Positions 7,045-46,559 of a stretch of 49,294 nt of DNA are shown one piece after another (positions within the stretch are counted from its first letter, which is position 1; each line of letters opens with the position of its first letter). Origin of the DNA: Girardia tigrina (lineage: Eukaryota). A program made the translations under genes and the position numbers. The notes under the pieces are model-generated. The model was not told the origin of the DNA, searched no databases, and saw only the letters and a list, made by a program, of their open reading frames with translations. The stretch spans positions 64,625 through 113,918 of the forward strand of contig MQRK01218860.1 in assembly GCA_001938485.1 (NCBI GenBank). Reading direction: 5' to 3'.

Positions 7045-8329
7045 TTAGGGTGAACCAAAAGTCTTTTCGTATTTTTTATTAAAAATTTAAACATAATTTT
7101 ACAACAAATAAAAAACATTTAAGTTTCAAAGTAAAGGCCATTTGAATCTATAGCTTGAACCCATCTATGGGCAAGTTGTGCGATCCCGCTGCGGTACCCA
7201 TCCTTGTTCTTAGAAGCGAAGAACTGGTGACACCCATTTTCGACCTCGGCCAGATTATTGAAGCTGCGACCACGAAGAAAGTGTGCCATAGAGCGGAAAA
7301 GGTGATAATCGGATGGCGCAAGATCCGGACTATACGCTGGGTGTGGAAGAAGTTCAAAGGCATCGAGATTTTTGATTTCTTCCTTTGTTTATTTGACGGT
7401 GTGCGGTTTTGCATTGTCCTGTTGTAGAAGAACTCGCTTTCGATTGATCAAAGCGGGGTATTTCTCGCCAAGTACCGCATACATTCGATCAAGTTGGGCG
7501 CAGTAAAGGTCAGCGTCGATGGTATGACTATTTGGAACCAGCTCGAAGTGAATCACGCCTTCGAAATTCCACCAAACACACAAAAGTGCCTTCTTTGAGA
7601 AACGATCTCGTTTCGCTACCGGTTTCCCCATTTGTCCGGGGTCAAACCATTGATTTTGTTGGTCTGGATTACTGAAGTAAACCCACTTTTCATCGCAAGT
7701 TACAATTCGACGGATGAAACGGTCATCGCGCGGATTTTCAAGCAATTTTTGACAAGTTTCGAAACGCTTTTCGGCTTGAATTTGTGTCAATTCATGAGGC
7801 ACTTCTCGACATCGTCTATTGACCTTGCCAAGAGTGTTAAGGTGTCGTACAATAGATATTTGAGGAATATCAAGTTCGGCCGACAATCTGCAAGTACTTA
7901 TTGACGGATTTGTCTCGACGGCTTCACGAATTACGCCGAAATCTACGGTGATAGGTCGGCCTGAACGTGCGTTGTCTCTGAGGTCAATATCGCCTTCGTT
8001 GAACCTTTTGAACCAATTTTGTGCAGTAAGATTTGAGACCACATTATCGTCTTCAACTTCGCATATTTTCTTTGTTGCTGCAGTTGCGTTTAAGCCCTGT
8101 TTCCAGTAATGGCGTAAAAGAACACGAATTTCAAAATTTTCTATGATTTTTCTAAAAGTCCATAAAAATTATATTAACGACTAATTAGAAGTTTTAATAT
8201 ATATTGTGATAGAGCAGTTCAAGAGCTTTAAAAACATAACACATGTATACAAAATATCTTTATTTGGTAATAAGAAACAATTGAACAAAAAGACGTAGAA
8301 ACTACGAAAAGACTTTTGGTTCACCATAA
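7045..8329 (-). mobile_element. Full-length mariner element (1285 bp), transposase inactivated
   Basis: 27-bp TIRs (tta(g/t)ggtgaaccaaaagtcttttcgta) with TA on both sides. Transposase runs from about 8160 to 7119 with HTH, VTCDEKW, QQDNAKPH and YSPDLAPSDYHLF. In-frame TAA at 7389-7391 and a damaged start. Confidence 0.95.
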
Positions 8330-11589: not shown

Positions 11590-12395
11590 AAACCAATGAA
11601 CATCAAGCCGTACCGATATCCATAAAACCTACCAGTCAAAAGTGGAAGAGGCCATAAGTAATTTAGAAGAAGTCAGAATAATCTGATTTTTGACTCACCG
11701 TTGAAAATACCACTAGTGTGGGCGTGGAAAATAATACGAGTTCGATCAGAATATGCACGAATATCAGAAAATTAAATCAGGTGTCACAGGCAAACACTCC
11801 TGATTCCTGGCTTGGCCGAGCTGATGGATAACTTGCACGGTACTCAATATTTTAGCACAATCGATCTTGGGTACACTTATTACAATGTAGAGTTAAAAAA
11901 GGAATCACAAGGTAAAACAATAATCTCTACAGAGACTAGTCAATTAGGTTTTCAAAGAATGCCGTTTGGTAAAGTCTCTGTTGTAGGGACGTTCCGAGTG
12001 TTGATATATTTAAAGGAAATAATTATAGTGACAGAAACCGAGAAGGAACATCACAAAATGTTGGACCAAGTTTTCAATGAATTGAAGAAGCTGGATTGAA
12101 AATAAAACCTTCGAGATGCAAATTCTTTACAAAAGAAGTGAGGTTTTTGGGACATTTAATGAACAAAAGAAGTATTACATGATACTGCCTAAGACGAAAT
12201 CTATTGCTGACTTCCAAAGGCCGAAATTTGTGAAGAAATTGAGGGGTTTCCTGACATTTGTAATTATTGTAGACAATTTATAAATAATTACTCTAAAAAA
12301 ACCAGGGCACTCGAAGGATTGTGCGGACAGTCAAATAGACAGGGATGAACACGAGTGAACAAGCGTTCGATGATTTAAATGCAGATACCGTGAAA
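11590..12395 (+). mobile_element. Ty3/Gypsy reverse transcriptase relic
   Basis: RICTNIRKLNQ, YFSTIDL..YY.VEL, FQRMPFG, degenerate IYLKEII (the YLDD position), EHHKMLDQVF, LKIKPSRCKFF..EVRFLGH. Frameshifted. Confidence 0.88.
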
Positions 12396-12399
12396 TCCC

Positions 12400-12730
12400 T
12401 TCTTTTACTACCAGAATGACACAGCATCTTGTGAGCGTCTTCCACGAATTCTGTCCTTATGGATATCGGAATCCAATATTTGTTATCTATTCTTGTTGCA
12501 ATATCGTCTTTCAGTATACATTTCTTTGTTCTTCCCATTCTAATATCTTCACTGATCTGATTTATTTCGTCATTATCTTTCTGCCACTTGAACTTTTTTG
12601 ATTCCTCGTCTAAAGCCAAGATTTGTGTTTTAATCTTTCCTTTCTTAGCTTCTTCGCGCATTGTTTGACACTGACTACATAATTCACAAGAATTTCTAGA
12701 CATTCCATTCCAGCAGTGTTTTCTGCTTTT
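12400..12730 (-). mobile_element. Gypsy RNaseH-integrase linker / integrase zinc-finger start, inverted relative to the adjacent RT
   Basis: SRNSCELCSQCQTM...KYWIPISIRTEFVEDAHKMLCHSG contains the integrase HHCC first half (H...CH.G). Confidence 0.7.
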
Positions 12731-12829
12731 TCGATATTTATGAGGTGTAACACCGCAAAATGTGTCTTGCGTAAAATATACGTCTCAGTATGTCTCAGTT
12801 ATTTGGTTATTTTTTACTAAGTGCTTAAA

Positions 12830-26927: not shown

Positions 26928-27255
26928 ATTATATTCTTGAATAAGCTTAAATGTTACAGTACCAATATTAATGATTTTTCCGTCCATTGAAGAAAATGGA
27001 TTATCTTTAGGCCACGTTGCAGTAATTGGACATATAGGCGACTGGTTTTGTTTTTCTTTCTTATAAGTATAAGTTTCTCCATTGTAAATTCCAGCATCCC
27101 ATGGATAAAGCGGAATAGTAATTTGATCAGTCCATTGACACCGACCACCACAAAGATCAAATCTGCTGAGACCAGTACACCAATCTGGACTAGGCTCAAG
27201 TCGGGAAAGAAAACTCACCAAATGATGAGTAGCATTGACAACTATGAGTGCTGAT
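26928..27255 (-). CDS. spon1-like: Spondin-like exon: C-terminal half of Spondin_N domain
   Basis: SALIVVNATHHLVSFLSRLEPSPDWCTGLSRFDLC...LYPWDAGIYNGETY contains the Spondin_N hallmarks PSPDW and PWDAG. Followed by a 46-nt GT-AG intron. Confidence 0.93.
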
Positions 27256-30059
27256 CTAAAAGGTGTTTGTTATACAGCAAATATATAAATGTAGTGTAAA
27301 AATTTTCCAATGTAGTTTCATTAAAATATAAATTATAAAATTGTGAAAAAATATTTTCTGATGGTGTTAAATGTATGTTGTATTTAATTTGTTGTTTTGA
27401 AATTTTCTTTTTTATCCAGTTAAAGGTGGATATTTTGAGTGTTGTTGATATTCAGAGTGCTAGGACAATATTTATTAAAATGTAAATGTAAAATTATAAA
27501 ATTAAAAAACAATCTTACAAAATAATGATAAAATTTTAATAAAAGAAATCATAATGAAAATATTGTTCCAATAATCAGTTTTGGAAAGACATTCTTGATT
27601 TATCAATCTAGGACAATGCATGTTTAGGAGAGTTTTGTTAATGACTGTCCCGAGGATAATTCATATTGTAATGTAAATACAAATGTTGGAAAAGATATTA
27701 ATTTCTCAAATCAAATAAATAATGTTTCTGTTCAATAAAGAAAACTCTTATTTTTATGGATAAAAATGTGAAAATAAATTCTTATTTCTATTAAAATGAG
27801 ATTCGTAAATATGTGATGGTATTTTTTACTTCAAAGTACCTGAACTTTTGTTGGGTATTAAATTATCTTTAATTTAAATATTTACGTTTCAAAACACAAA
27901 TCTTTATTCTTTAATCTGAAATCTTTAATCTTAAATCTTTAATTTAAAATCTCCAATTTGAAATCTTCAATTTGAAATCTTTAATCTGACTCCAATTACT
28001 CAGAAAGGACTTCCAACATAAATATATAGACAATGAACAAAAATTCTTTATGAAACTTTATTTCGAATAACAAATATTAACAAGTCAAAAATAATAATAA
28101 TAATAATTCAATTTTTGATGACAGAACATATAAAAAATATTGTATCACTTGTGTCGCATTAATACAATATTTTTTATTTCGTATTTTGTCAACTAATAAA
28201 CTCACTCAATTATACTTTGAAGTTGACTTGGTTTAGCAAAAAAGAAAACAAATAATATAACAATCAAAACGCAAAATATGTCAAAGTTTGATAATAAAAT
28301 AAATATATCTAACAATAAGAGAAATAAATGCAATTTACTTGAGATCAACAAAATAAGATTTTATTCATTCCTATAACAAGTACATCATAATAATCACGGT
28401 AATTAATTAATATTGTTATTCAAATTATTAATCGATATATCTTTTAATACAGATTTTGAAGAAGATAATGAAAGTTTGTTTTGTATGGGAATAATTTGAA
28501 ATCTTCTCTTAATGTCATTTGAATTGATTAAATAAAAAAAAATTTTATTTTATTTGATAAACTTCTTACGAACACCGGGTCCCTGTGTTGGACATGAAAT
28601 ACTCCTTTTGAAAACTTATTTTCTTCAAAGTTTTCGAGATGTGTTGAACTGATCTGTACACCACATACGGAAAATATTTCCTATAACTTTTTTAAGAATC
28701 TTAAAAAAATGCTTTCGTTAATTTAACTAGATTAACGCCAATCTGAAAGACCCAAGGTGCTAGTCAAAATAAATTCACTTTCATATTCGATGACCGATGA
28801 TATCCTTTCTCGGACACAAACAAATGAGATATAAGCTGAGATTAACCAAGTCAACCAAATTATACAAACTCTCCGATCGCGGCTTGGACAATTCAAATAG
28901 AATAAAAAAACAAAAGACAATCGTAAATGCATCTCACACCACACACAAGAATGTCTGTGTACAACTATAACTAAATAAAAGTCAAGTGTCTTGTACAAAA
29001 AACGAAAGTAAGCAAACCACATCCATACACAAAACACGCGAAAGTAGTGTTTCACAGAACGCAAACACAAAACAATATTTCGTACGAATTAATAGATTAC
29101 AGTAAAAACTGTGAATCTCCAAAACGAACGAATGTTTAAATTTAAATTAAACCTTTTCCTCCCATACGGGATACTTTTGGTTTAAAGAAAAATAATATTT
29201 TGAAAGAATAAAATAAAAATAAAATAAATTTTTGAATTCACGTTACTTGTTTCCTTACGCGAATTTTTGTTTAGGCAAATTTTTCGACAAATATTTTGGG
29301 CAGACTAAAACTAGATTTGCTGCTGTTTATATAATAGTTTTCATCGGCCTTGAAAATTGATGAAGTAAAACAAAGACTAAAATATTTTTAATTTTCAATT
29401 CCAACTTTTGTTAAACTAAATATTATTTTATTTAAAATTAATAATTTTACCAAAAGAATTATTTTAAATTTTTCTATATAAAATTTTATCAAAAGTGTTC
29501 ATATGTATTTTTCGAAACCCTAACACTTTTACATTACTCTTTGTGGAGCGTTTTAGAATCATGTTTCTTCTGTTGAACATCATAATAAAGACTTCCTTTC
29601 TATTTTTCTACTATTTGCTCGAAATGAGATAAAACTTTAGAAACTCGATGTTCGAAAATCGGATGTGATGATTCAGATGTGAAATTCTTTAAAAAAAATT
29701 AAAATTCTTTAAAATTCTGTAAACAAAAAAAATCTTTTCAAAAGCAACTGGTTGACATTTTGAAAGCAACATGTGTTATTTAAAAAGTAATTAATTTTTT
29801 ATACATATGTTTGTGCATTACTTTTCGCTTCATTATTTTCATTAAATATCTGATTTTTACATAGTTCAATGACTTTTGGGCTGCTCTGTATAACGAAGAA
29901 CTGTATAACGAAGCTTTTTACTCTATTCGCATTATTTTGATCAATCAGTTGCTATGACCAAAACATATGCAGCAACACTAAAAACCAAAAAAGAAATAAA
30001 TTTAATTATAAATTATATTGCTATCTGAAGTTAATTTATATGGATAGTATATCAAAATA

Positions 30060-31341
30060 CAGGGTAATCATAAAGTAACTACCGGGTTTTAAACTGCAAT
30101 AACTTTTTTTGGCAAAACATGACAAAATAGTTTTAAATAACAAAGAAGCATTTATTAAAATTTAATAATATTCAACAGAATAACCACCGACATCAATACA
30201 ATGTTTAAGGCGTCCATGAAAAGACTTAATGGCATTTTGGCACTTTTCACCATCTATTTTTGCCGCTTCTTGACAAATAAAATCTTTAAGTTGCTGAATT
30301 GTTTCTGGTTTTCTTTTATACGCTTCATTCTTCAAATACATCCACACACAAAAAATCGAGAGGTGTCAAATCAGGGGATTTGGTCGGCCATACATATGGA
30401 CCACATCGTCCCAGTAAACGTTGTGGAAACGCTTCATCCAGACATAGTCGCACAATCAGGGAATAATGGGCAGGTGCTCCATCTTGCTGGAACACAGCTT
30501 TCCGTTTGCATATTCTTGATAACGATGGCATAAAGCAACTTTTTAACAGGTAAAGCGCCGTTGTTATGTTTCCTTCTATAAAAAAGGGCCCATAAACACG
30601 AGTTGAAGACAACCCATCCAAAAATTTACTTTTTCACTAACCTGTGACCTCTGATATGTTTCGGTTGGTGTTTCAGTGCCCCAAATGCGACAGTTATGTC
30701 TGTTTACAATGCCGTTAAGATGGAAAGTTGACACATCAGAGAATATCAGGTTACTAAGAAAATTGTCATGTACATCTATCACACATAACACATCTAAGAG
30801 CGCAATCTTCTTCATGTAAAAGTTGCGTGTCTTGAATTCCGTAGGGGAACATTTTTAAGTCGTTTCGTAATACTTTTTGAACAGTTCCAAAAGAGCAATT
30901 CAGAGTTGACAACGATTTCCTGATAGAAGACTGGGGTTTTTGCTTAAAATGTTCTGCTAGCTCATTTTTCTTTTCATCATCAATTGGTGGTCTTCCAGAT
31001 TTTGGGGCATTTAGAACGCTTCCTGTTTCTTCAAACTTTTTGAAGATACTTCTAATACTTCTTTCGGTTGGAATATTTTTCCATTTAAGTCGTTGAAGTT
31101 CTCTTCTTACTAAAGTCACTGACTCATGCTTCGAAAATAAAATAACAATTTTTGCACGCTGATTTACATCCATTTTGAATCTTACGCTTAAAACAATAAC
31201 AATTAATACATTTAAACAAAATATACTTTAATTAAATTTTAAAGAATAAGCTTCAAGATGCCTTTATAATTAAAAAGAAATACAATATAATTCAAAAGTT
31301 ATTGCAGTTTTAAACCCGGTAGTTACTTTATGATCACCCCG
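30060..31341 (-). mobile_element. Full-length DD41D (rosa/Visitor-type) Tc1/mariner element (1282 bp), frameshifted
   Basis: About 48-bp TIRs with TA flanks. Transposase pieces 31173-30162: MDVNQRAK..KFEETGSV..SGRP, IFSD, FQQDGAPAH-41 aa-D (SPDLTPLDF). Confidence 0.93.
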
Positions 31342-31637
31342 TATATAATATAATCAATAAATTAAGACTTCGTCAAAGATTAAAATATCTTGATATTCGG
31401 CCATAGGACTACAATCCTTATGCTTTGGTGATAAATCATTTAGTTCAGCAAGTTAACCAACATTTTTTTCAACGCCACGTAACGCCTTCAGGTGCAAATT
31501 CAGGTAAATATATAGCTTTCTGTTGAAGATAATGGAAAACTAATATTCATTTTATCAATTATTTATTGTTTAAAGAATAATGTCGTTTTTTAACCTTAAT
31601 CTTTAAAGACAAATATCTCAGCGTAGAATCCACTTTA

Positions 31638-32490
31638 TTAATCAAAATAACAACCGTTAGTATCAACGCACTTTTGCCAGCGTTGCACAAGTTTATTTAT
31701 TCTGGTTGCATAAAATTCTGGCTTTCTGGAGGCGATGAAATCGTTGAAGTCAGTTTTAGGATCCCCTTGATTTTTGAAGTATTTCTCCTAGAGGAAAATG
31801 TCAAGATGTTTGAAAAAGTGATAATCAGTAGGCGCGAGGTCAGGTAAGTATGGTGTATGACTCAAAGTTTCGTATCCAAGTTCGTTCAACAGTTACATTG
31901 TCAGACGTGCGATGTGTTGCCGGGCGTTGTCATGGAGAAGAATAGGCCCCTTCCTATTGACTAATGCTGGATGTTGTTGTTGAAGTTTCCGGTTCATTTT
32001 AACGATTTCCTAACAGTATTTGTCTGTCGTAATTGTTTCTCCTGTATTTAGGAAGCTATGATTAATAAAACCGGCTGCAGACTACCAAACAGTCACCATC
32101 ATCTTTTTTCGGTACAATTTTGGCCTCGGAAAGGGTTGCGGAGCTTGATCGTGGTCCAACCATTGAGAAAAAAGTTTCCGATTGTCGGAAAGAATCAACT
32201 TTTCATCACACGTTACAATTCGGTCTAGAAACGGATCATTCTTGTTCCGCAGAAGAAGTGAAGACGATTCCTCAAAACAACGCATTTTTGATTGTCATTT
32301 AATTCGTATGGAATCCATTTATCTAGATTTTTCGACTTCCCAATGTAACGCAGAAGGTTTGAAATTGTTTCTATCGTGACACCAAGTTCCTCCGCAAGCT
32401 CTCGAACCGTTTTGCATGGATTCGCTTCTACTAAAGCCTTCAAATTTTCATTTTCAAAAGCGCCTCTGCTACCACCGTCCGCTCTTTATG
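31638..32490 (-). mobile_element. 5'-truncated mariner (cecropia/Hsmar1-like) transposase relic
   Basis: DPFLDRIVTCDEK, QWLDHDQAPQPFPRPKL..KKMMVTVW, GPILLHDNARQH, DYHFFKHLD, RWQKCVDTNGCYFD*. Confidence 0.9.
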
Positions 32491-32782
32491 GCTACTCGAG
32501 GATCCCGTGGAACATAAAGTGTAGCTGGGACAATGAATAATTAAACAGAGTAATAAAAAACACGAATTTTATTTCGAGTAGTAATTTATTTAGACAAGTC
32601 AAAATTGTGATAAATAGTCACGCATAATAATTTTATCGCAATTGATACCTTTAAACAATTCAAAAAATTACAAATATATAGAAAATGAACACACTTCAAT
32701 GTTGAAATTTATTCACAATTTTTCATTATTTTTTTATATTTGCTGTATTTATTTTATAAGTCAAAAAAATTTCGTCAGAATA

Positions 32783-32828
32783 TATTGTGATTAATTTTGA
32801 CGGATCGACCGTAATCATCAGACTGAAA
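32783..32828 (-). ncRNA. Mutated hammerhead copy in the inverted pLTR
   Basis: Minus strand reads CTGATGA-T-TACGG-tcgat-CCGTC-AAAA-TTAATC: G10.1>T (32813) and G12>A (32798). Confidence 0.75.
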
Positions 32829-33139
32829 TAACAATGATATACTCGCGTTTATATATCAAAGTAATGTTTATGTAATCATTATGTCATTTAAATCATGAAA
32901 ATACTTTCAATAAAGTTGAAGAGGATGGTGTTTGGACATTGATTTTAGGATCAAAAGATTTGATCAACAATGCTTCACACATCACCCTTTCCCAGTAATT
33001 ATCAAATTGTGAAAAATTAACTCGGGAAACTGTCGATAAATTAATTAAATCGGAAAATGAAAATGAAAAATCAAATACAATAAATAGCGACAAAAACAAA
33101 AATCAGATAAATAATAATTATGATAATATTGGTTTTGTT

Positions 33140-33595
33140 TTGACTGTTCCCTATTCTGAGGGTTTCAGGAAATTCAAAAACTCTATTTTGAAACATGATG
33201 AAAATAATTTATTAAATTTAAAAATTGTATCTAGATCATGTAAGATAGGAAGTTTGTTTAGTAGTAAATCTATCACTCCAACTGGGTTATGTTCCAATTT
33301 AGTTTATCAATATAAATGTAATGGGTGTGACGCCATATATATCGGAGAGACTTGTCGTCATCTCTGTAAACGGATTCAGGAACATAATCGCAGGGAAGGT
33401 GATAGCAATATTGCTCAACATAAGAAGAACTGTTTGATTAGTAAAGTTGATGTAAGTAATTTTAAGATTTTGTGTTCACAATTTGACAATTACTGGGAGA
33501 GGGTGATGTGTGAAGCATTGTTGATCAAATCTTTTGATCCTAAAATCAATATCCAAACACCATCCTCTTCAACTTTATTGAAAGTATTTTCATGA
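33140..33595 (+). CDS. Penelope-type GIY-YIG endonuclease domain (C-terminus of a truncated PLE ORF)
   Basis: NLVYQYKCNGCDAIYIGETCRHLCKRIQEH...IAQH...RVMCEALLI..P.IN carries the GIY-YIG/CxxC/R..EH/E..I..N motifs. Confidence 0.9.
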   Translation: MTVPYSEGFRKFKNSILKHDENNLLNLKIVSRSCKIGSLFSSKSITPTGLCSNLVYQYKCNGCDAIYIGETCRHLCKRIQEHNRREGDSNIAQHKKNCLISKVDVSNFKILCSQFDNYWERVMCEALLIKSFDPKINIQTPSSSTLLKVFS

Positions 33596-33659
33596 TTTAA
33601 ATGATATAATGATTACATAAACATTGCTTTGATATATAAACGTGAATATATCATTGTTA

Positions 33660-33705
33660 ATTCAGTCTGATGATGACGGTTGATCCGTCGAAATTAATCA
33701 CAATA
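33660..33705 (+). ncRNA. Minimal type I hammerhead ribozyme in the pLTR (intact core)
   Basis: CTGATGA (33667-73), T, GACGG-ttgat-CCGTC, GAAA (33690-93), T-TA-ATC. Palindromic mini stem III (ATTAAT); predicted cleavage after C33699. Confidence 0.82.
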
Positions 33706-36700
33706 TATTCTGACGAAGATTTTTTGACTTTTAAAAATTCATTATCGTCATTTTTTAAATATTTATTTTATAATTATTTTCTTTTTAATTGTTATTTGTT
33801 TATTCCAAATAATTTAATTGTTTTCGAATTCATCTAATGATTCACTAATTTTCTTGATTAAATTTTTTTTAATCTTCAAAGTTAGAATTTTTCAAATTAT
33901 CGGAATTCTCTAAGGCAGCGTCAGATTAAACTTTTTCCTAAATTTAAGGAACTTAAAGATTTGAATTACTCGTTTTTGTATTTATTTAATCGATCATTTT
34001 GGACGTAAAAAAGTAAGACCTTGCAAATGATCAGTCAATCCGTCCCTTCAATTTTTCGACTTCAATTATTATTAATAATAGTATTATTATTTTGATAATA
34101 ATTATTTATTATGTGACTTAAAATATAATATTCTAAATTTGCTTTTATATTTAATAAAAAAATTTCTACAAGATGACCCTAATATTTTATATTATTTTTT
34201 TATGGCTTCTTCTGTAAATAGAATTTATTTTTAATTAAACATAATCTAAGGAACAAATATTTTATACATATATTTAAATGAATGAAGTCTAAAGTAAATT
34301 AATTTTCTAAAATGTCAGTTATAAAGTTTTGTGATTCCTGTTTAAGTTGAATTAATATTTAATAAACAATTCCATCTGTAAATAATCCATGACTTAAACA
34401 TAAGCAAAACATCGGAAAAATAAATACATGATGATCAACAATCATGGATTTTACGAAACCAAATTATGATTAATTTATTTAAAAATATAAATAATAAAGA
34501 AATATTTTAATGAAGGATTTGTTTCATTTAATTTATTATTTAATTTAAATACTTCTTACAACTTTCCGGATTCGTTTATCGTTTTAATTCTGTGACCATA
34601 CTTTAAAAAGTATTAACAAAATATTATCAAACATCCAAAAAATATATAATGTTCCCAATGAATCTGACGGTCGTCATCAAGACGAAATTATCGAAAAAAG
34701 AGATGTCAGACCTTAGCAATAAATTATGAATAATTTATATCAAAAATAATTTCTTATTTCCTTCAAAGTTAAATGAAAATAAATTTAATTTAATATATAA
34801 ATTAAGAAACTAATTGTAATATATTTTAAATAATTTCGTTAATATTTTCGCAAATAAATATTTGAAAAACATTTGATAAATTATTTAAAATAAATTTTAG
34901 GATTATAAATCCATAAATGAGTTATAATAAAAGATAAATTATGTTGAGATCGTCCATAATTTTAAAGCAAATTAACTTTGATTAAATCAAGAAATTATTT
35001 GTTTATATTATTTTCAATGTCAAAAGTGTGAATCCTTGTACACTGGAGAGACAACTTGACGCAATCTTTGCACGAGGATCGTTGGACATAATCAATCGAG
35101 TAACAATAGTTCAATTTTCAAGGTAGACAAAGTAATAGTCATAAAAAAGATTATTTTAATAATTTAGATACAAATTAGAAAGGATTGTTATCGAATGAAT
35201 CTGTTTATAAAACATTATAAACCATGTAAAAAGATTTCAGGTGATTCTTCAATCACATTTTGCTTTTTGTTTCAGATTTCACATGTAATAGTTTTTTTAA
35301 ACTTTTCCCTTACGGTGACAAAAACGCCCGCACGGTCCGGTGTTGTGTAGTGACCAAACATTTTTTTTAATTAGCAAAAAATCAAAAAATTGATAATACT
35401 CTTCATCATGTATCAATAGAGATATTAAAGTTTAATTAAAGCAATGTGTACTGAGTACATATTTCAGGGAAGGGAATCTTAACTTTATAAATATTCCCTT
35501 TAATATTATTGCAACATCACAATTTGCGTGAAAACATTTATTAACTACACAAACAGACTCATTTTCAGTAGCACAATCTGTGGAAAGCATCGTTCTTCAA
35601 TTAAAATAGTTTTGTCTATTTCTTTAAATCTTAATGAATTTAATTTATCAAAATTTTATTGAGTAAAAATAAATTAAGTAAATTTTAAGATAAACATTAG
35701 TTCTTTAATTATATTCAAGTTAAGAAGTTAAGTTATTAAGTATTATTACAATTTCAAATTACAAAACTTTTAATTAATTAGTATTTATACATTAATCTCA
35801 TTAGATTTAAATAATTAATCAACAAAATATCAATCCCATCTGAGTAGGAGAGTCACCAGTCTAAATAGTATGCAAACAACAAAATCACTATTAAAAACGG
35901 TTTCAAAATAAACACTATTTTATGACATAATGGTGAAAACGTATTGTATTAAAAATAACTTTTCTTTTTGTTATTAATAAATAAGTTGTTCTTTATTTCA
36001 GATAAAAAATTAAAAGATAAATGTGGTTTTTGTATAAAATATAAATTTTTTCGAATTTATTTTCCTCCTTCTCTTGTAGTATTCCTTACTACAATTGTGT
36101 GTGATCAGTGAATTTAAGGGTATGTAAAACATAATGAATACAGAGCAATAACTCTATTATATGCTTTGATAAGTGCATTTTTTAACTGATTCCACAATGT
36201 GATTCAACTAAGTCGGACATTGAATTCTTAAAAATTTGGTCTCTAAAAACTATAGGAATTTCATAATTAGTGTTCTGTAAAAGCTTTGCATCGTGTCTTC
36301 AGTGTTTGAAGGATTTAAAGTTGTAAGTATATACAATAAGTTGAAATAGGTTGTTAATTTGAACAAATATTTTAGTAAATAATATATCTTTGAAAATCAT
36401 TAGGTTGACTTGTTTTTTATGCATCACTTTGGTAAAATAATTTTTTCAACTGTTTGCCTGTAGTGCACTACTTTGTTTCTGATACATGTAAACATGAACA
36501 CTGTAAGTTAATATAAGAAATAATTTAGAAATATAATTTTTTACAAATGTTTCTTTATGACAGTTTGCTTATATATGTTTTTGGTGGTATTATCTATAAA
36601 AGTTAAGAATTTTTGTTTTCGTACTTCATAAAACGAAAGAAGGATTCTCTCATATGAAGATATCATTCGTAGATTATGTTATAGTTGTTACCTTTATCTA

Positions 36701-37075
36701 GAGCACACAATGAAAAAACATGATTTTAAAAGTATAAAAGGTGTTTTGAAGAAAATTAGATTCCAAATCTGGCAATCATATAAAAATCATGTCCAAAAGT
36801 TAGAGAATTTGGTTAAGAAATTGGAAGGTCTAAAAAAGACAAAGTCTGAAAAACCAAATCAAGTATTCGACGAGAAAGCATTTGAAGGAACATTTACTAA
36901 TTTCTTTGATGTTTCCTGTTCATGATGTTTCGATGATGATCAAAATTCATGAAAACATGGAAAGAAGAATGAAAATGTTTGATCCATTACCGAAAGTAAA
37001 GGAGAAAACATAAGTACAGAAAAGAGAACATTATCATAAATGAAAAAGAAATAAAGAGCAGATTTACAAGAGTTC

Positions 37076-37530
37076 ATGTTAAATTTTAAGCAATATTTAT
37101 GTGGCAGGCGATTTACAGCAAGAACTGATTATAAAGCACTGCTACATATGAAGAGTACGTCCAAACCAATAACTCCTCAATTCCAGACATGGTTAGCAAA
37201 CATGGCGGATTTTTACTTTGATTTGAAGTATAGAAAAGGTGACGAACATATAAATGCAGATATATTATCACGGCTATATGACGACATATGTGCACAATGT
37301 GAAACAAAACACAAAGAACCAAAATCAACAAAAGCAAGAGTGAAATACATCAATACAGTGGTGATTCAGTCTACAATTCAATGGATAAAAGACGAACAAG
37401 AAAAGTGCTCAGAGCTGAACCAGCTGAAACAAATACAGGAGATGGCAGAAGGTGAAAAGAATGAAATCACCAAGGACTTATTACAACTAAAGGACCAATT
37501 AGTTTATCAGAATGGGTTATGGGGTAGGCA
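37076..37530 (+). mobile_element. Ty3/Gypsy RNase H / linker relic
   Basis: FKQYLCGRRFTARTDYKAL...W...FYFDLKYRKGDEHINADILSR followed by CAQC..KH. Confidence 0.88.
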
Positions 37531-37689
37531 AGAAAGACATGACAGAGATATTTCTTTGAAACCAAGTTTTTCCTCATATTCTTTACACTCTCAATGTATC
37601 CCGAGATTTGCAAAGTCAAAGAAAAAATAATTTTTCAACGTCAAATCAGGAACGTGACCGTCTTTGATGATAATTACTTTCTTTATTCA

Positions 37690-38300
37690 CGCATCAGATA
37701 AAGAAGGGCATAATACCATGTCACTCGGTGAATTATTCAAGCTCACGACAACAAAATGAAGCTAATGAGCACAACACTTCAAATTAGAGCTCTATCAATG
37801 TATACCATTAGTGTTTCAGTGGTACAACTCTTGTGACTCTTGGAAAACTCTGTAAAAAGGTTATATAAAGCATTCCTTGGGTAATAAAACATTGTAAAAA
37901 TCAGAAGTTTTGAAGATCGGCTTAAAATTTTTTTGAAAATTTTGAAAAGAAATAAATTTAATATTTTATTACTAAAGTCTTGTTCTTTCAAGTTCTGATG
38001 AAAAAAATTGCAAGTAAATTTAGAGTAAATATTCTCAGAATATCTTGTGTAATGATAATGCAAATCTTTCTTTATTGTTTTTTGCTACTATCCCTATACC
38101 ATCCAGGGTGTCGTCTATTGACCATTTTTTCAAAATATGTGGCCATGAGCTCTTTTTAAGGTATCTTTCCATTGTCATGATATGAAAATGCTTTATTTTC
38201 CATCTCGATTATTTTTCCTGGACATTATGTTTGGAAAATCGTTTCTTGAAAAACAGCTTTGATCTTTTTTTTATTTTGCTTGAATTTAAATTTGCTTTAT
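37690..38300 (-). mobile_element. Possible decayed hAT transposase
   Basis: Minus-strand IDRASN(L) followed by CCAH*LHFVV resembles hAT DGASNM...HCxAHxLNLV. Heavily decayed. Confidence 0.35.
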
Positions 38301-39021
38301 TTTATCTTTAAACTATAAAAATGATGTATATTGATGAACCTCACTGTCTTGTTTTTAGAGAATTAATATAATATCTTAGATTCACCCCAATTAAGAAAGT
38401 AAATGAAGGATGTAATTTGAGGGTCTCTGATCAATCTAAGGCTTTCAATTTTTTCGATTTAAATAAATTAAATAAGACATTTAATACTACTGGTTTACTA
38501 AATTTCTCGTGTTTGTTATAATAATAATATTTTAACAATAAAGAATAAATAAATAACTTCAATTCAATATGGTTCTATAGATCCATTTGGATTTGTGATT
38601 TTAAAACGGCTTACATTTTATTTTCACAAGTAGATTTCGTGTGTTACGTATTCCTAAAGGTACTAAAATTATATGGATCATTAATGGATGTTGAATAAAT
38701 GATGTTTAGATATCCATTTATTCAAGTGCATTCTCATTATTTTATTAAAAACTTCCAAATAATCAGTTCAATTCAATTTATTTACGACTCAAAAAATTAC
38801 GAAACTCAAACATTTAGATGCATCATATGTGTTATTAAAAAATATTTTGATTAGTACTAATTAAGTTAAAGAGCAAACAGTAGAGTGAACAAAAGAACAT
38901 ATTAACATGAAAGCCATGAAAGATCTCGTTCATACTTACAAGATTCTCTACCAAGAAATAATGTGAAGGTATTATATTTGAATGAATCTCGTTCTTCAAC
39001 CTTAATGAAACTGGAACAATC

Positions 39022-40430
39022 CAGGGCCATTTTTAAGAAATTTTCACTGGGGGGTACAAGTAATCTGGAATGGTCAAGTGCCGAAATATGGTAACTTCTT
39101 TTATCTCGAATGAAAATAGTTATTTTTTTGTTTTTTATAATGTTTTTTTCCTTTTCTTAATAGTTCTTTATCAAGTGTTCTCAGAAAGGAAAGAAAAAAA
39201 CATAAGTTATCCGTGCCATAACATTTTACGAACAGTCCAACACGAGTTATATAACACAACACTTCAACACATGTTACTTTTTAAAAAAAGAATTGGCAAC
39301 AAAGTATTTTTCTGAAGAAACATCCGAGTTTGGGTTTCTTTCTCGTCTTTCTTTCACTCACAAAAATTCTGCCATAGTACTGCGATGATCAAACTGACAG
39401 GTCCACTTTCAATTAATTTGCGAGCATCATGTGAGAGTTGGCTGTCTCAACTGAGGTTCTCATGCGATGGGCTGAAACGTTCAAGTTGTATAAAGAAACA
39501 AGCCTCTCAAGAAGCATGCTGTGTGTAGCGAGTATTATAGAAGACTATATTACTTCCAAAAATATGTCGCTGCAGCGCAGAAGGAAAATTTTCCACTTCA
39601 ATTAGGATAAAGCATTTATTGGCCATTGCTCAGCACAGTCATCTAGTAAATGCTGGATTTCTTATGAAAACAAACGTCGTGTTATTTTCAATCATGCCTT
39701 AATAAATGCTTCGAATTCTGATGTTTTCAAAAGTTTTAATATGTTTTTGACAACTTCTACTGAGTCTCTGTTTCCTAGGGCTGTAGTTTCTATTCCTCTC
39801 TACCAGGAAAGGAAGCCCTAGATAAAAGGTCTCATTGACGAAGTTCTTAATCTTTATTGCTTATTATCTCTTGTAGAATAACGTCGTCACGCTGTAGCTA
39901 CCTTTGCAAATCACGAAATATTTTCAAGACATTAACTATAAGACCGTTAAGCAAAACTTGATACTATTCATACGCCCATGTCTTCAAATATCCCTGCGCT
40001 TTTGCTCTCTCTGTTTTCGATTCCCATTTCAGTTCTGAAAACTTAGAAACTTCCTTGCAACTGTAAAGGTTATAAAGATTAACCGTAAAAAGGTTGAATA
40101 TGTGGTCCGCAAATTCAACTTCGTAATGAGCAGGTAAATTTTTTACCGTTGGTTGAAATTGAGGCAGGAGTTTTGTTGTTTTTTCAGACGTTTTGAAGAA
40201 GATAGCTAGAAACTTAGCATTTTTGATCCAGATACGCAGCTCCTTCAATGCTTTTAAAAGCTAGGTCACTTCTGTGAACAGCACACCAGAACTTCAATAG
40301 ATCACAATGCATCCAGTTCTTCATCAGCTTCAAGAGCCCCCTTGTTGATCCTATATTAGCGCTTTCGTTATCTGATGTAACACCAATCACCTTAGAATTT
40401 TGTGCAACCGTGATCTTAAGTGCATCCTAT
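39022..40430 (-). mobile_element. Decayed hAT-like transposon
   Basis: CAGGGCC terminus at 39022. Minus-strand pieces LPAHYEVEFADH.. and THSMLLERLVSLYNL..HRMRTSVETANS..M resemble the hAT catalytic/dimerisation C-terminus. Confidence 0.55.
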
Positions 40431-41989
40431 CCAGGGGCTCCCAACTGTTGAGGTTCGTTGAAGGCTTTGCACACATTTTTTACTTCACGATCTTTTTTTT
40501 CTATTCTAGCAGAGACTTACTTTAAAGGTTTGAATAATTTTAAAATTTGTTTAATTATTTTTTTGTAATTTTATGAAATATTTTTAAGTTAAAATAATAA
40601 TAAATGTTATTGAAAAGTTTCTAAATTTGTTCAAATAATCATTATTCAAATTCAGAAATAACTCTAATTAAATGGTGAAAGAACTTCTGGAAAGTGTCGT
40701 TCCTCAAAATGTGATAATAATGTTTGCATAGTAATTGTGTCGGTGCTCTTAACATTGATATTTTGAGTTAAAGTTATAAGGCGTCTAAATTTATATTTTG
40801 ATTACATTGTTTTAAGAAACATATATCCTTTTTATACAAGTTTATACAAAATATTTTATCAGATTTTTTTTGGCATTGTGTCAGGTTAACTTGGTTAATG
40901 AACCCAATATTTTATTTCATTCATACTTCTGATATCAAATAAACAAAATTTCGTTCGAAAATAAAATATTTCAACAGTCAAACAATTATATATAATCGAC
41001 AGTATCTCTGATCCCCAATCAAGATATGTCAATATAGCAAATACTCCAACGAGATTAAACATTAATACCTCAACCATGATTTTGATTATCCTAATGTCAC
41101 TTTCCATTAGCCATTCCACCCACCATGTACCGAATGAGTCTTCTCCTAACGATCCGATTAAATCATTAGGAGAATTTATTAAATTAGATGCAATTTACGT
41201 TAGAATTTCCCCAGTATTTACCATTATTTAAAATTAAAAATTTCCTGTATTGACCATCAATAAAGAACAATGATATTCAGTTTTAATTTTAGCAAAAAAA
41301 GAAGTAAAATTAAATCGACAATAACTTTCTGGGAGACGGGAACTGTTTTATTTTATCAGGAAGTTCAATTCTCTTTTCGTATTATACTCCTAATGAACTG
41401 AATGCCGTTCGACAAACATTTGTTCCATTTTAATCGGTCAAAACGACTTCGATTTGGCTTTTTTTCAAATTATAATTAATTAAATCAAGGTAAAAAAGAT
41501 GGAAAATGATATACTAATTCCTTTATATTTTAATTCCAAGTATTATGTCCTATTTGAGAGTTTTGGAATTTTAAATTTTAACATTTTACTTAAGAAATCT
41601 TCGAGAATAATTATATTTAAATTTTTCATTTTTTTCATTTTTCTAAAACCATATGAGCGTTTTGGGTAAACATAATGTTAAATCCCATTAAGTTCCCATG
41701 TTCCAATCTGGAAACATTTTTATTATGAATAAAAACTTATCAAGATGTTATCGGATTTTTTTATCTCTATTTTGGACATTGCAGAAGAGTTAAATTTCCA
41801 AATTACATCAATGAATTATAAAAAAATGGTACTTAATATGTCAAAACAAATGATCTATGAAAATTGCCAGTCTCAAGTATTTAAAAGCATAATTTCCATA
41901 GATGTTGATTTAATAACTATAGATGCCAAGTATTGAAGAATATGGCGAATCAAGCACCAAGTGGCACATATTAACCTGATTTGTCCCGG

Positions 41990-42555
41990 ATATTACCATA
42001 ACCGACGCAATGGTCGGTTCATTCGATCGCTCCGTGATAAACATTTGGAACGACAATTGGATGTTCTGACAATGGAACTTGGCGTTCTTGACGCACTGGT
42101 CGTGGCACACGATCTGGCAGTTGATGCACGAATTGACTGAGCCCATCGCGATCAGCGCTTGATTGCACGATTCGCAAAACTTCAATTTATTATCGGTGAC
42201 GCGATTGACAAAGTGATGTCCATCGGGTCGAAATTTGTGGATGCTCTGCAGCTTAATGGTTGTTGGAAACGAGCAATTGTGTCATTACGTTGAATTCGAT
42301 GCGATAATTGAAGAAAGTTGGCGAAGTGTAGTTGGATTTGTGCCGCGAGCGGCGCTCATTCTCACGGGACGCCGACGAAAAACATTTTTCGTGGTAGGTC
42401 GAAGTTGAGCGATGAATCGAAATACTTCGGATGGATTTTTGAGAAAATGTTTGTGATTTTCGATTTGATTTTGTTGAACTTTTTACCGTTGACTTCTGAG
42501 TTGATGGGATTCGTTTTGGTTTTAGATTTCGAGCGTTCCTTTTTCTCCATTGAAT
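41990..42555 (-). pseudogene. Nested gene fragment encoding a C1 (DAG/phorbol-ester-type) zinc finger; pseudogene or unrecognised nested gene
   Basis: HHFVNRVTDNKLKFCESCNQALIAMGSVNSCINCQIVCHDQCVKNAKFHC has the full H-C-C-C-C-H-C-C pattern in a GC/CpG-richer island. The upstream frame is interrupted. Confidence 0.7.
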
Positions 42556-44223
42556 TTATAATCAAAAATTGAGAAAAATTAATGACAAAATAAATGCTTT
42601 ATTTGAAAACAAATTAAATTTTGCATGATAACGATTGTAATTTTAAACAAAATTATTTTTTTCCGTTCTCTTGTCTTTCGGTTCACTCTCAAATTCAATT
42701 TAATAAAAACTTTTAGCGATTAAAAAATTTTGTAATTGTTAAAAAAAATTATTTTTTTAATAAGGAAAAGAAATTTTAATATGAAATAGGAAAGTTTTCT
42801 AAATTTAATAAAGTGAAATGTTAATATTAATAGTTTTGATTAAATTGAATTTTATAAATCTGTTAAATGAGAATTTCGATATTGTGAGGGATAATTTGGA
42901 ATGTTGTAAGTTTGTTGTTTGTATGCTGTTTAGATTTGTGACTCTCCTACTCAGATGGGATGGATATGTTATTGATTTATTATTTGAATCTAATGATATT
43001 AATTTTAAATACTAATTAATTAAAGTTTTATAATTATAAATTTTAATAATATTTTTATTAAACGATTTTTAACTTATTAAATTTAATATATATTAAAAAT
43101 TAATGTTAATTTTAAAAATTACGTAATGCATTTTCATACAATAAAATTTAAGAAATTAAAAATTAATATTAAAATCTTTCCCATTCATTGTTTTTATAGA
43201 TTTAAATGCTTAAACAAAAACTATATCAATCAAAGAAAGATGCTCTCTGAAAATTGTTGTGAAGAATCTGTTTGTGTTGTCAATAAATGTTTACACCAAC
43301 ATTCAAATTGTGATGTTGTTAATAGATGTGATGAAAATTCTTTTGTTAGAGTGAGAAGGTGTAGGGAAAAAAGGAAGTAAAATAAATGGTCACTACAATA
43401 ACATTTCGGAGATAAAGTGAACATCCCTTTCTATGGAATCGTCCATTTGATATGACGTTCTGATTTAAAGTAACGTTTTATAATCTAAAAAGGTTTTTGA
43501 CTTTTCGAATCTCTGATAATAATCCAGTTATAATTTTATAAGCTTAAGGTGAAATTACGATTTTTGCTTCATACAAAACAATTGTATTCAATGTTAATGC
43601 TTTGTCACGAGGCTTGTTTTATCTTGATGATAACATTGAAAACAGATAACCTACTGGTTTTATTTCTTACATAATCAGAAATTTACTTCACATACCATCA
43701 TTCTTCAAGTCAAAAAATTATCCTGAAAAATACAATTTTATGGAAGATGTTATAACATTAACAAGTTAGAAGATCATAAGTTTGCTAGTCCGATCAGATA
43801 AAGAATGAGAAGTATTGTCAGCTAAGAATACGATATTGGCTGGATTTCAGGATAATTTGTAAATGTCTCCATAGATTTAGTTTTGATAGAAATTTCAGGA
43901 TATTTCTATTCGAATTTATGAAGATAACATCTGAACTTTGTAGTTCATAAACCTGTGTATTCTTTACCTGAAACTGACATCATTGTTGTACAGAAAAAAA
44001 GAAACAAAGGTACCTTCCTTTCGAAAGACCTCTAATTTGGGTTGGAAGAAGGAGTTTTACGAAATCTTCATCTACTTCCACATAACAAAATCAATATATT
44101 TAGCATGGTCTTTGCCAACATTAGTAACTTATATGACAACCTACGGTGCATATGTAGACTAATACTAAACTCCATAGCTGTTATTTCTTATCTTAGGTAA
44201 CGAATTGAAAAGGTGTTTATTTA

Positions 44224-45505
44224 TTGGGTTGGCAAAAAAGTCATTGCATTTTTTAGTACGTCTTAATAAAAAGCTTGAAAATATAAAACGATGTGATAAA
44301 ATTTAAATGCAATTATATATTCTAAAATCTTAATTTTCAGACTATATTTATACAAAATATTAATTGATTTTGTTTTAATTTATTACTTTACCGTCAATTC
44401 GAAATGGAAAATCAAAATGAGCATATTCGTCATGTTTTGTTGCATTATTTTCGCAAAGGGAAAACCGCTGTGCAAGCTCATAAGAAGATATGTTTTGTAT
44501 ATGGTAGCGACTCCTTAAAACTTCGACAGTATCAATTCTGGTTTTCTAAATTTCGTTCTGAAAAATTTCATCTGAAAGATGCACCACGCTCCGGTCGACC
44601 AGTTGAAGTTGATGGCGACAAAATAACAGCACTGATCAAATCTATTCCACATATGACGACAAGAGAAGTTGCACAGACTCTGGAAATATCAAAATCAAGT
44701 GTTGGAAGTCATTTAAAGAAACTTGGATTCGTCAGTAAACTCGATATGTGGTTACCAGATGAACTGAAAGAAATTCACTTGGTGAAATGTATAGACATTT
44801 GCGATTTCCTTTTGAAGCGAGAACAAAGTGATCCATTTTTAAGCGCTTGATTACGCATGACGAAAGATGGATTGTTTACAACAATGTGGAACGCCGACGA
44901 TCATGGACAAAATGTGGTGAGCCTGCTAAAACGATCCCAAAAGCAGAAATTCACCAAAAGAAAGTTATGCTTTCCGTCTGGTGGGATTTTAAAGCAATTG
45001 TGTTTTTTGAACTTATTGCGAGAAATGAAGCCATCAATTCAGACAGATATTTTGGTCAGCTGGAGAAATTGGCTCATTCAATTCAACAGGAACGTCCTGA
45101 ATTGGCAAATCGAAAAGGAGTTGTAATTCAGCATGATAACGCAAGACCGCATACAAGTTTGACCACTCGCCAGAAACTCTTTTCACTGGGTTGGGAGGTT
45201 TTGCCGCACCCACCGTATTCTCCAGACTTGGCCCGATCGGATTTTCACTTATTTAGATCACTGCAGAATTCCTGAAACAGAAAAACATTCGCCAGTGATG
45301 ATGACATCAAATCGTTCCTAGACGGCTTTTTTGCTGACAAAGGCAAAGGTTTTTATGAATCAGAAATAATGAAGCTACCGAAAAGGTGGAAGAAAGTGAT
45401 TGAAAATAATGGACAGTATATCGTGTAAAAATATTTGTGCATCCATGTCATTTTTTGATAATAAATATTTTAGTAAAAAGCGCAATGACTTTTTGTCCAA
45501 CCCAA
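44224..45505 (+). mobile_element. Full-length mariner (mellifera-subfamily-like, DD34D; 1282 bp), inactivated
   Basis: TIRs ttgggttggcaaaaaagtcattgc / gcaatgactttttgtccaacccaa with TA flanks. ORF MENQNEHIRHVLLHYFRKGK.., HDERW, QHDNARPH-34-D (YSPDLARSD). Frameshift at about 44845 and stop at 45273-45275. Confidence 0.95.
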
Positions 45506-45725
45506 TAAAATATTTTGTTTTCGCAAGTTTTTTAGTTTTTTCGAAACATCTTTTTGTAACAATGTTTTATCTTGTCCATTTTTTAAAGATTTTTACAAAA
45601 AATGATAATTATAAAAATTTTATAAATATAACATTTTATAAAAAGTGTATTTAACACGTATGAAAAAATTATAATAAATATTTTATAACAATCAATAAAT
45701 ATTAATTATTATATAAATAAAAAAC

Positions 45726-45909
45726 CTTCTCTTAGTTTTTGAAGTTGTATCTATGGACCTTGCTAAAATAACTGTCAATATTCCTTTTCCAGAACTGTAG
45801 AATCGTTTCTGTAGGAGGTCATAGGTTCCGTTACCACAAACCCCTAAGACTCCGTCATCCGCCATTCCTCCGAGATTATATAAATTAAAATCATCCGAAT
45901 GTGAGGCTC
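45726..45909 (-). CDS. spon1-like: Spondin-like exon: N-terminal half of Spondin_N domain
   Basis: (G)ASHSDDFNLYNLGGMADDGVLGVCGNGTYDLLQKRFYSSGKGILTVILAR resembles F-spondin GxSHS...GGYASEGVKQVAE.G...VLTVIKA. The phase-2 end joins the 27255 exon in frame. Confidence 0.85.
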
Positions 45910-46559
45910 CTATTCAATTATTTATTTTAATTATCGGCAAATATTTTTTAAGCCAATGAATATATAAACTATGTAAACATAAATAATATAAAATATATAC
46001 TTAGTTTTTCTGACACAACCTTTGAAGAAAGAAGGCTTTATAAAGTTCACTGATTAAATACTGATGGTACATTCTATTTCAACCTAAACTCAAGTAAACA
46101 TTTATCGTAAAAGTATGTTTAACTTTGCATTTTATGTACTTGATTAATTTGTATGTCGTCTTTTTAAAGGAATAAAATGAATAAAGTTAAATACAAATTT
46201 ATTCAATCTATAAACATTAATTTAAAGCATAATTGATTTTAAATAATTATATATTTAGTAATACTTCGCCGTTGTAAAATTTGCGAAGTATTTTTTTAAT
46301 AAAAAATCACTTATGAAATAAAAATTTTAATATTATATATTATTAATATTATTTATATTAATTAAATAGAAAATGCTCCTTATGTTACAAAATAATAATT
46401 ACATTTGAGATTACTTTTTCCGATTATCACTGATTTTAGTGAACATTAAGTTTTATTCATTTTCCTGGAGTGATAACAATTTTGTATTGCCTGGATCAAC
46501 TAAAATTGCAATGGTTACAGGTCAGTTTTTTCTTGTAAGTTTAAGTCGTACCAGCACTA

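What the first reader, a model, noticed from the sequence alone, without database searches (positions are those of the whole stretch)
32751..33738. Penelope-like element folded into a hammerhead-bearing inverted repeat inside a host intron
Seen: a GIY-YIG domain flanked by ~260-bp inverted arms, each ending in a minimal hammerhead fold. Established: PLEs carry minimal type I hammerheads with palindromic stem III in their pLTRs, usually active as dimers, and 5'-truncated copies often gain an inverted pLTR. Inference: spondin pre-mRNA would form a long dsRNA stem, a potential ADAR or siRNA substrate. The unit also resembles a compact endonuclease-plus-ribozyme cassette lacking RT.
Basis: partly seen in the sequence, partly recalled or inferred. 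Interest (0 to 1): 0.7.

Follow-up and report, generated by a model that had tools for sequence, protein, structure and literature searches.

The report
Truncated Penelope retrotransposon with mirrored end
This 1-kb mirror-ended insert is the broken-off end of a jumping gene whose end sequence occurs more than a thousand times in this genome; it sits in a predicted intron of a spondin gene in a pattern already described for Penelope elements and is likely inert debris, not a mobile cassette of its own.

Summary
In detail: 262-nt inverted arms (32752-33013, 33475-33736; 14 mismatches) flank a GIY-YIG remnant, inside a predicted 18.5-kb spondin intron on the opposite strand. It is a 5'-truncated Penelope/Poseidon-type retrotransposon. 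Longer copies in the genome carry RT before the same endonuclease, and the hammerhead pattern occurs 1,692 times. The inverted end, one-sided 30-nt tail, target duplication and ORF start inside the hammerhead are all published PLE features. Three corrections. (1) It is not a mobile RT-less cassette: its junction occurs once, and 24 other inversion junctions all differ. (2) Only the right arm has an intact hammerhead core. The left arm, the one the host transcript would carry in sense, has G12A and G10.1U. (3) In the hairpin both motifs are predicted to be buried, and opposite strands cannot form the dimer. A 262-bp duplex in host pre-mRNA is plausible but untested, and the arms decay independently at the family rate. 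This scan noted the same architecture before in other genomes (22 findings, at least 10 genomes).

The parts
32752..33013 (-). Inverted 5'-truncated copy of the element's 3' end (inverted pLTR), without tail
   Evidence: 8 private changes against the family majority
32789..32821 (-). Left hammerhead motif, core-mutated (G12>A at 32798, G10.1>U at 32813); sense to the host gene
33010..33013 (.). 4-nt microhomology at the head-to-head junction; junction unique in the assembly
33010..33595 (+). 3' remnant of the PLE ORF: linker plus GIY-YIG endonuclease with CCHH motif and Y/R/E/N residues; no RT, no Met before the catalytic motif
33475..33736 (+). Right arm (element's own 3' end: endonuclease C-terminus, UTR, hammerhead, ORF start)
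   Evidence: 6 private changes
33633..33667 (+). Putative pLTR promoter: TATA box at 33633 and initiator-like TCAGT at 33662-33666 (inferred; initiator consensus recalled)
   Evidence: TATA[AT]A 25-49 nt before the core in 32 of 39 family copies, 10 of 22 sister-family copies
33665..33701 (+). Minimal type I hammerhead with intact core: 2-bp helix I, bulged U, 5-bp helix II, palindromic helix III hexamer, predicted cut after C33699
   Evidence: cross-family variation
33673..33766 (+). Start of the element's ORF (ATG inside the hammerhead core; a second in-frame ATG at 33670), 31 codons
   Evidence: continues into the N-terminal ORF in L043
33737..33766 (+). 30-nt one-sided tail
   Evidence: family matches end at 33766
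32746..32759 (.). Left copy of a 14-nt AT-only direct repeat overlapping the element end (likely target-site duplication)
   Evidence: read by eye; the same feature tested in 16 other units
33760..33773 (.). Right copy of the 14-nt direct repeat (likely target-site duplication, overlapping the tail end)
   Evidence: read by eye
27256..45725 (-). Predicted host intron (18,470 nt, GT..AG, phase 2) of an F-spondin-like gene
   Evidence: not confirmed by RNA
45726..45909 (-). Upstream host exon, first half of Spond_N
26994..27255 (-). Downstream host exon, second half of Spond_N (3' end not mapped)

Best explanation
This is one 5'-truncated copy of a high-copy Penelope/Poseidon-type retrotransposon with an inverted copy of its own 3' end, likely made in a single insertion event and likely inert since. 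Shown: the body is the 3' 757 nt of a family whose longer copies carry RT; the inverted arm joins it through 4 nt of microhomology; only one end has the 30-nt tail; the junction is unique; the arms have drifted independently. Inferred: an RT-endonuclease protein from another copy nicked both strands of an AT-rich site. Reverse transcription ran from each nick, one product starting at the tail end and the other 30 nt further in. Both stopped early and were joined head to head at the microhomology, leaving a 14-nt target duplication. The hammerhead belongs to the parent element, where it overlaps the predicted promoter and the start codon. Here it is predicted not to cut: the host-sense copy is core-mutated, both copies would be buried in the hairpin, and there is no same-strand partner within the unit. 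Host pre-mRNA would form a 262-bp duplex as a by-product.
For: Family: 40 of 40 scored contigs match the unit's DNA; 1,692 exact hammerhead-pattern matches against 0 for the control pattern. L045 has RVT_1 (E 1e-8) followed by GIY-YIG in one frame. Junction: 1 match in 1.43 Gb at up to 2 mismatches. 25 distinct head-to-head junctions among loci L001-L090 (28 rows, 3 duplicates dropped), all at different breakpoint pairs. 11 of 29 other copies sampled by their 3' end have such an inversion. In 16 other two-ended units the longest direct repeat shared by the outer ends averages 11.3 nt against 6.6 for swapped pairs; 10 of 16 reach 10 nt against 1 of 130 controls; 14 of 16 have a tail at one end only. 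Decay: loop 6/461, right arm 6/262, left arm 8/262 from the family majority, none shared, family median 2.0%. 30 of 33 (host strand) and 32 of 33 (element strand) motif positions pair with the other arm in the predicted fold. The same architecture is published (PMC3846280; PMC8557442; PMC11167929).
Against: The two-nick priming order is inferred; PMC3846280 instead proposes self-priming on an antisense template. The window's own target duplication was read by eye, is AT-only, and no empty allele was seen. The loci were chosen partly with a tail-bearing query, which biases the 14 of 16 count. No full-length intact copy was found among the 20 stretches fetched; the DKG motif was seen only in relatives. 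Inertness was not tested in RNA. The endonuclease frame is still open, though with about 2% decay that is common in this family.
Confidence: 0.9

Rival explanations
1. The 1-kb unit is a non-autonomous mobile cassette (endonuclease plus two ribozymes, no RT) that spreads as such.
For: The frame is open over 198 codons with catalytic residues intact. Inverted arms resemble terminal repeats. L069 has an arm starting at nearly the same place (33473). PLE ends can be mobilised in trans (PMC3846280; retrozymes).
Against: The junction occurs once. L069's body starts at 33089, not 33010, and no other of 24 junctions matches. There is no Met before the GIY-YIG motif. The left hammerhead is mutated.
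Confidence: 0.02
2. The insertion is dead as a transposon, but its hairpin matters to the host: the 262-bp duplex in spondin pre-mRNA is edited by ADAR or diced, and this affects splicing or helps silence the family.
For: 248 of 262 Watson-Crick pairs, longest perfect run 53 bp, MFE -458 kcal/mol on the host strand. It lies in a predicted intron. Penelope copies give small RNAs in a rotifer (PMC3846280).
Against: The arms decay independently at the family rate with no shared or compensatory change. Such inversions are common in this family. The unit is about 5.5 kb and 12 kb from the flanking splice sites. Formation of some duplex is likely; a selected effect has no support.
Confidence: 0.07
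3. The arms act as outward-facing promoters. The right arm would start an antisense RNA near 33664 with an intact, unburied hammerhead at its 5' end; the left arm would fire along the host intron.
For: A TATA box lies 31 nt before an initiator-like site in both arms and recurs at the same distance from the core in the sister family. pLTR promoters are described. Such an RNA would lack the other arm.
Against: No start-site data. Helix I would be 2 bp and the monomer is predicted not to fold. Minimal PLE hammerheads showed no monomer cleavage (PMC4209133), and the PAc ribozyme needed its protein (PMC11167929).
Confidence: 0.1

Closest known systems
Pen2a_Av and related Penelope insertions of Adineta vaga (PMC3846280, passages)
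   Same: [quoted passage not shown]
   Different: Here the body is cut to 757 nt with no RT; the junction is a 4-nt microhomology rather than a 15-bp overlap or palindrome; the family is far more numerous
PAc, Poseidon element of Anolis carolinensis (PMC11167929, parts 1-2 of 4)
   Same: ORF starts at helix II of the hammerhead; cut site 26 nt after the start codon there, 27 here; AT-rich target; tail bounded by two RT start sites; both target strands cut and extended in vitro
   Different: Tail ends lie 64 and 94 nt into the ORF here, against a start region at 111-118 there; no biochemistry here
Minimal type I hammerheads of metazoan PLEs, D. virilis-type variant (PMC4209133, parts 1-2 of 4)
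   Same: Bulged base between 9 and 10.1, G10.1-C11.1, short palindromic helix III, 2-bp helix I; pairs of motifs 100-700 bp apart on opposite strands were already reported in Schistosoma
   Different: Helix II is 5 bp without a bulge; the left copy has lost G12 and G10.1; motifs here are about 850 nt apart
Non-LTR retrozymes (bioRxiv 10.64898/2026.07.22.740005, passages)
   Same: Non-autonomous, hammerhead-bearing, related to PLE pLTRs
   Different: Retrozymes are non-coding units that recur as monomers and tandems; this unit carries ORF sequence, is inverted and occurs once

Membership tests
EN+ Penelope-like element, C-terminal endonuclease | Single ORF with RT followed by GIY-YIG | tested here: met
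   Met for the family (L045, RVT_1 then GIY-YIG, 92% identical to the window remnant). The window copy itself has lost RT.
EN+ Penelope-like element, C-terminal endonuclease | CCHH motif with two Cys between GIY and YIG; catalytic R, E, N | tested here: met
   C104, C107, H126, H138, Y100, Y111, R122, E169, N181 invariant in 9 aligned proteins; definition from PMC8557442
EN+ Penelope-like element, C-terminal endonuclease | pLTR with hammerhead; partial tandems or inverted 5'-truncated copy; one-sided 30-40-bp tail | tested here: met
EN+ Penelope-like element, C-terminal endonuclease | Target-site duplication around the whole unit | tested here: met
   10 of 16 other units share a 10-nt or longer repeat against 1 of 130 controls; the window's 14-nt repeat was read by eye only
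Penelope/Poseidon clade | No CX2-5CxxC zinc finger in the RT-EN linker (present in Neptune and Nematis); CCHH present (absent in Hydra) | tested here: met
   No such motif in the linker
Penelope/Poseidon clade | RT phylogeny with named reference elements; DKG motif | tested here: inconclusive
   No tree with named references was built. DKG is in relatives P0005 and P0015; GxKH is in L043, which is rearranged before the DKG region.
Minimal type I hammerhead (right arm) | Core CUGANGA, GAAA, UH with helix II and palindromic helix III | tested here: met
   Sequence; helix II probability 0.95; core intact in 79 of 95 distinct copies
Minimal type I hammerhead (right arm) | Covariation of helices | tested here: inconclusive
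   None informative within the family (the motif is also coding). The sister family swaps the 2.2-1.2 pair G-C to U-A. In 26 motifs of other families helix II averages 3.9 bp against 1.6 shuffled, but these are related sequences chosen by a pattern.
Minimal type I hammerhead (left arm) | G12 and G10.1-C11.1 present | tested here: not met
   G12>A and G10.1>U; family has G at both in 89 of 91 aligned pieces
Minimal type I hammerhead | Self-cleavage as monomer or dimer | not testable with these tools
   needs in vitro assay
Non-autonomous cassette or retrozyme | The same unit recurs with fixed internal junctions | tested here: not met
   1 match, the window's own; 24 other junctions differ

The most novel reading that the evidence does not exclude
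This copy and its many siblings record how Penelope inverted ends are built: a dimeric RT-endonuclease primes at both target nicks at once, one subunit using the tail-end start site and the other the inner start site, and the two cDNAs are joined by microhomology. This twin-priming route would explain the mirrored end, the one-sided tail and the target duplication together, and a family this large makes it countable.
Probability: 0.3. Interest if true: 0.45.

Novelty: new member of a known kind. Interest (0 to 1): 0.15.

Why it matters
As a locus it matters little: it is one decayed copy in a pattern already in print. Its use is as data. How PLE inverted ends form is not settled, and this genome holds 1,692 plus 3,006 pattern matches of two sister families with mappable junctions, tails and target duplications. 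If head-to-head inversions are as common as sampled (11 of 29), the family would be a large source of long intronic dsRNA in this animal, which matched RNA data could test.

Tried and rejected
Rfam scan at E<=10: no hammerhead model hit, 8 sub-threshold matches to snoRNA and other models judged chance. Plain folding gives no support for a monomer hammerhead. Run search with the host exon: no RNA holder listed on record, so no evidence on expression. Contigs of four runs (RNA is a guess) cover the element family; no listed joint or piece showed this window's junction, listings were cut, and contigs cannot show editing, so no conclusion. A 5'-UTR intron ending at the AG before the core, as in D. 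virilis, was considered: no such joint was listed, and the loose ends at 33666 turned out to be a sister family. Within-family substitution rates (core 14/1042, helix II 26/945, upstream 58/3283) do not separate selection from drift. A truncation hotspot near 33010-33026 was suspected, but those loci were ranked by match length and it was not tested further. The C1-domain ORF at 41913-42281 was checked as a possible nested host exon and is a dispersed repeat (148 matches). Assembly artefact: no N gap near the unit, and the arms differ at 14 sites. Paper search for Penelope virilis inverted copies and siRNA gave nothing I read. Repbase and Dfam could not be searched, so the family may already have a name.

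Full report
Observation. The arms are real: 32752-33013 and 33475-33736, 262 nt, 95% complementary, 461 nt apart, with 14 differences. The next longest inverted pair in 30000-37000 is 51 nt. A stop-free frame of 198 codons ends at 33595 and hits Pfam GIY-YIG above its cut-off. Its first Met lies after the catalytic motifs, so the unit cannot make the endonuclease on its own.

Host context. Two halves of a Spond_N domain lie on the minus strand at 45719-45925 and 26994-27254. They join without a stop across a GT..AG phase-2 intron of 18,470 nt, 27256-45725, which holds no N gap. This intron is predicted from sequence and was not confirmed with RNA. The element's ORF is antisense to the host gene, so host pre-mRNA would carry the left arm in sense.

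Family. The body matches other copies at 93-97%, and the protein search of the genome returned 152 matches from 150 scored candidates. The family's hammerhead pattern occurs 839 + 853 times against 0 for the control. In most copies the sequence continues upstream of 33010 into RT: L045 has RVT_1 then GIY-YIG in one frame. The CCHH motif and catalytic residues are present and the linker zinc finger is absent, which fits Penelope/Poseidon as defined in PMC8557442 (passages). No tree with named references was built, and no full-length intact copy was among the 20 stretches fetched.

Ends and junction. Family matches run to 33766, 30 nt past the right arm, while the left arm stops at the equivalent of 33736. 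The arm meets the body through 4 nt of microhomology. A 33-nt pattern over this junction has one match in 1.43 Gb at up to 2 mismatches, the window's own. Among loci L001-L090 there are 25 distinct head-to-head junctions (28 rows less 3 duplicates), all at different breakpoint pairs: 9 with 1-6 nt overlap, 3 flush, 13 with 1-37 nt between. Of 29 other copies fetched by their 3' end, 11 have such an inversion; several others end in gaps and could not be judged. In 16 other two-ended units the outer ends share a direct repeat of 11.3 nt on average against 6.6 for swapped pairs (10 of 16 against 1 of 130 at 10 nt or more), and 14 of 16 have a tail at one end only, with a selection bias towards tailed copies. 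The window has a 14-nt AT-only direct repeat at 32746-32759 and 33760-33773, read by eye. These results indicate that the inverted unit is made anew at each insertion.

Hammerhead. The right arm has the minimal type I core, a bulged U, a 5-bp helix II, a palindromic hexamer as helix III, C17 at 33699 and a 2-bp helix I. This matches the D. virilis-type variant in PMC4209133 (parts 1-2 of 4). Rfam does not detect it and the monomer fold is not favoured, as expected for a motif thought to work as a dimer. The ORF starts inside the core, the frame continues into the N-terminal region seen in L043, and the cut site is 27 nt from the ATG. PAc has the same layout with 26 nt (PMC11167929, parts 1-2 of 4). 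Because the motif is also coding and the copies are young, conservation within the family says little. Across families the evidence is better. The sister family changes only free positions and swaps one helix I pair on both sides. In 26 motifs of other families helix II averages 3.9 bp against 1.6 in shuffles and helix I 2.1 against 0.9 in swaps, though these are related sequences picked by a pattern. The left arm has G12>A and G10.1>U, where the family has G in 89 of 91 pieces at each. That G12 is the general base is recalled, not from a call.

Hairpin. On the host strand 248 of 262 pairs are Watson-Crick, 3 are G-U, the longest perfect run is 53 bp and the predicted energy is -458 kcal/mol. 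A read-through RNA of either strand is predicted to bury its hammerhead (30 and 32 of 33 positions). The two motifs lie on opposite strands and cannot form the dimer with each other. The arms carry 6 and 8 private changes and none in common, the loop 6 in 461, against a family median of 2.0%: this looks like neutral decay. No editing or small-RNA evidence was obtained. PMC8797187 on planarian ADARs was seen only in a search listing; the host group is my untested guess.

Mechanism. The inferred route is priming at both nicks of a staggered AT-rich cut, from two RT start sites 30 nt apart, followed by early termination and joining at microhomology. It builds on the in vitro result that PAc cuts and extends both strands and starts at two sites bounding the tail. 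PMC3846280 (passages) proposes self-priming on an antisense template instead. In one search for Penelope-like, twin priming, inverted and pLTR, none of the 10 listed papers (of 11) held both 'twin priming' and 'pLTR'; this is a narrow search of an incomplete library.

Comparison and verdict. PMC8557442 and PMC3846280 describe this architecture directly: inverted 5'-truncated copy, one-sided tail, target duplication, ORF start in the pLTR. PMC4209133 reports opposite-strand motif pairs 100-700 bp apart. No supplements were read; they may list this family or its hammerhead. Earlier notes of this scan report the same pattern in other genomes; two of them pointed me to PMC3846280. It works like, and is, a truncated EN+ PLE insertion. 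It is not a mobile cassette. Interest 0.15.

Noticed in passing
G000, loci L091-L120: A sister PLE family with 3,006 exact hammerhead-pattern matches; endonuclease hits in 14 of 30 loci. It keeps the core, helix II and the hexamer, and changes N7, loop II, H17 and one helix I pair on both sides.
   Followed up: partly
G000, loci L121-L150: 624 further minimal-hammerhead matches against 3 control, in several families with different helix II sequences; the centre of the helix III hexamer is self-complementary in 26 of 26 motifs. Only 4 of 30 loci had an endonuclease hit, so some may be other repeats.
   Followed up: partly
window 33699 and 33696: Position 17 is C in 75, A in 17, U in 2 and G in 1 of 95 copies. 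Run X8 shows a common A>G at 33696 that keeps the palindrome through G-U pairs. Both changes are also synonymous in the ORF.
   Followed up: partly
L038, L049, L063, L065: Inversions of internal segments with little overlap with the main copy, like the 5' inversions of L1 (L1 comparison recalled), beside the usual inverted-end type.
   Followed up: no
window 41913-42281 (-): C1-domain-like ORF (Pfam C1_1 E 3e-6) that is a decayed dispersed repeat, 148 matches in the genome; the carrier element was not identified.
   Followed up: partly
window 30057-31344: Tc1/mariner-type element with 51-nt inverted ends and a broken transposase.
   Followed up: no
window about 31600-32500, 44368-45275, 7148-8168: Further decayed mariner transposase copies; the first ends about 250 nt left of the PLE unit.
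   Followed up: no
window 36632-37630 and 11776-12784: Fragments of LTR retrotransposon-type ORFs (RT_RNaseH hit at 37055-37627; the others judged from translations).
   Followed up: no
window 3907-45909 (-): Host gene has Spond_N, several TSP1 repeats and two Kunitz domains; its 5' exons were not sought.
   Followed up: partly
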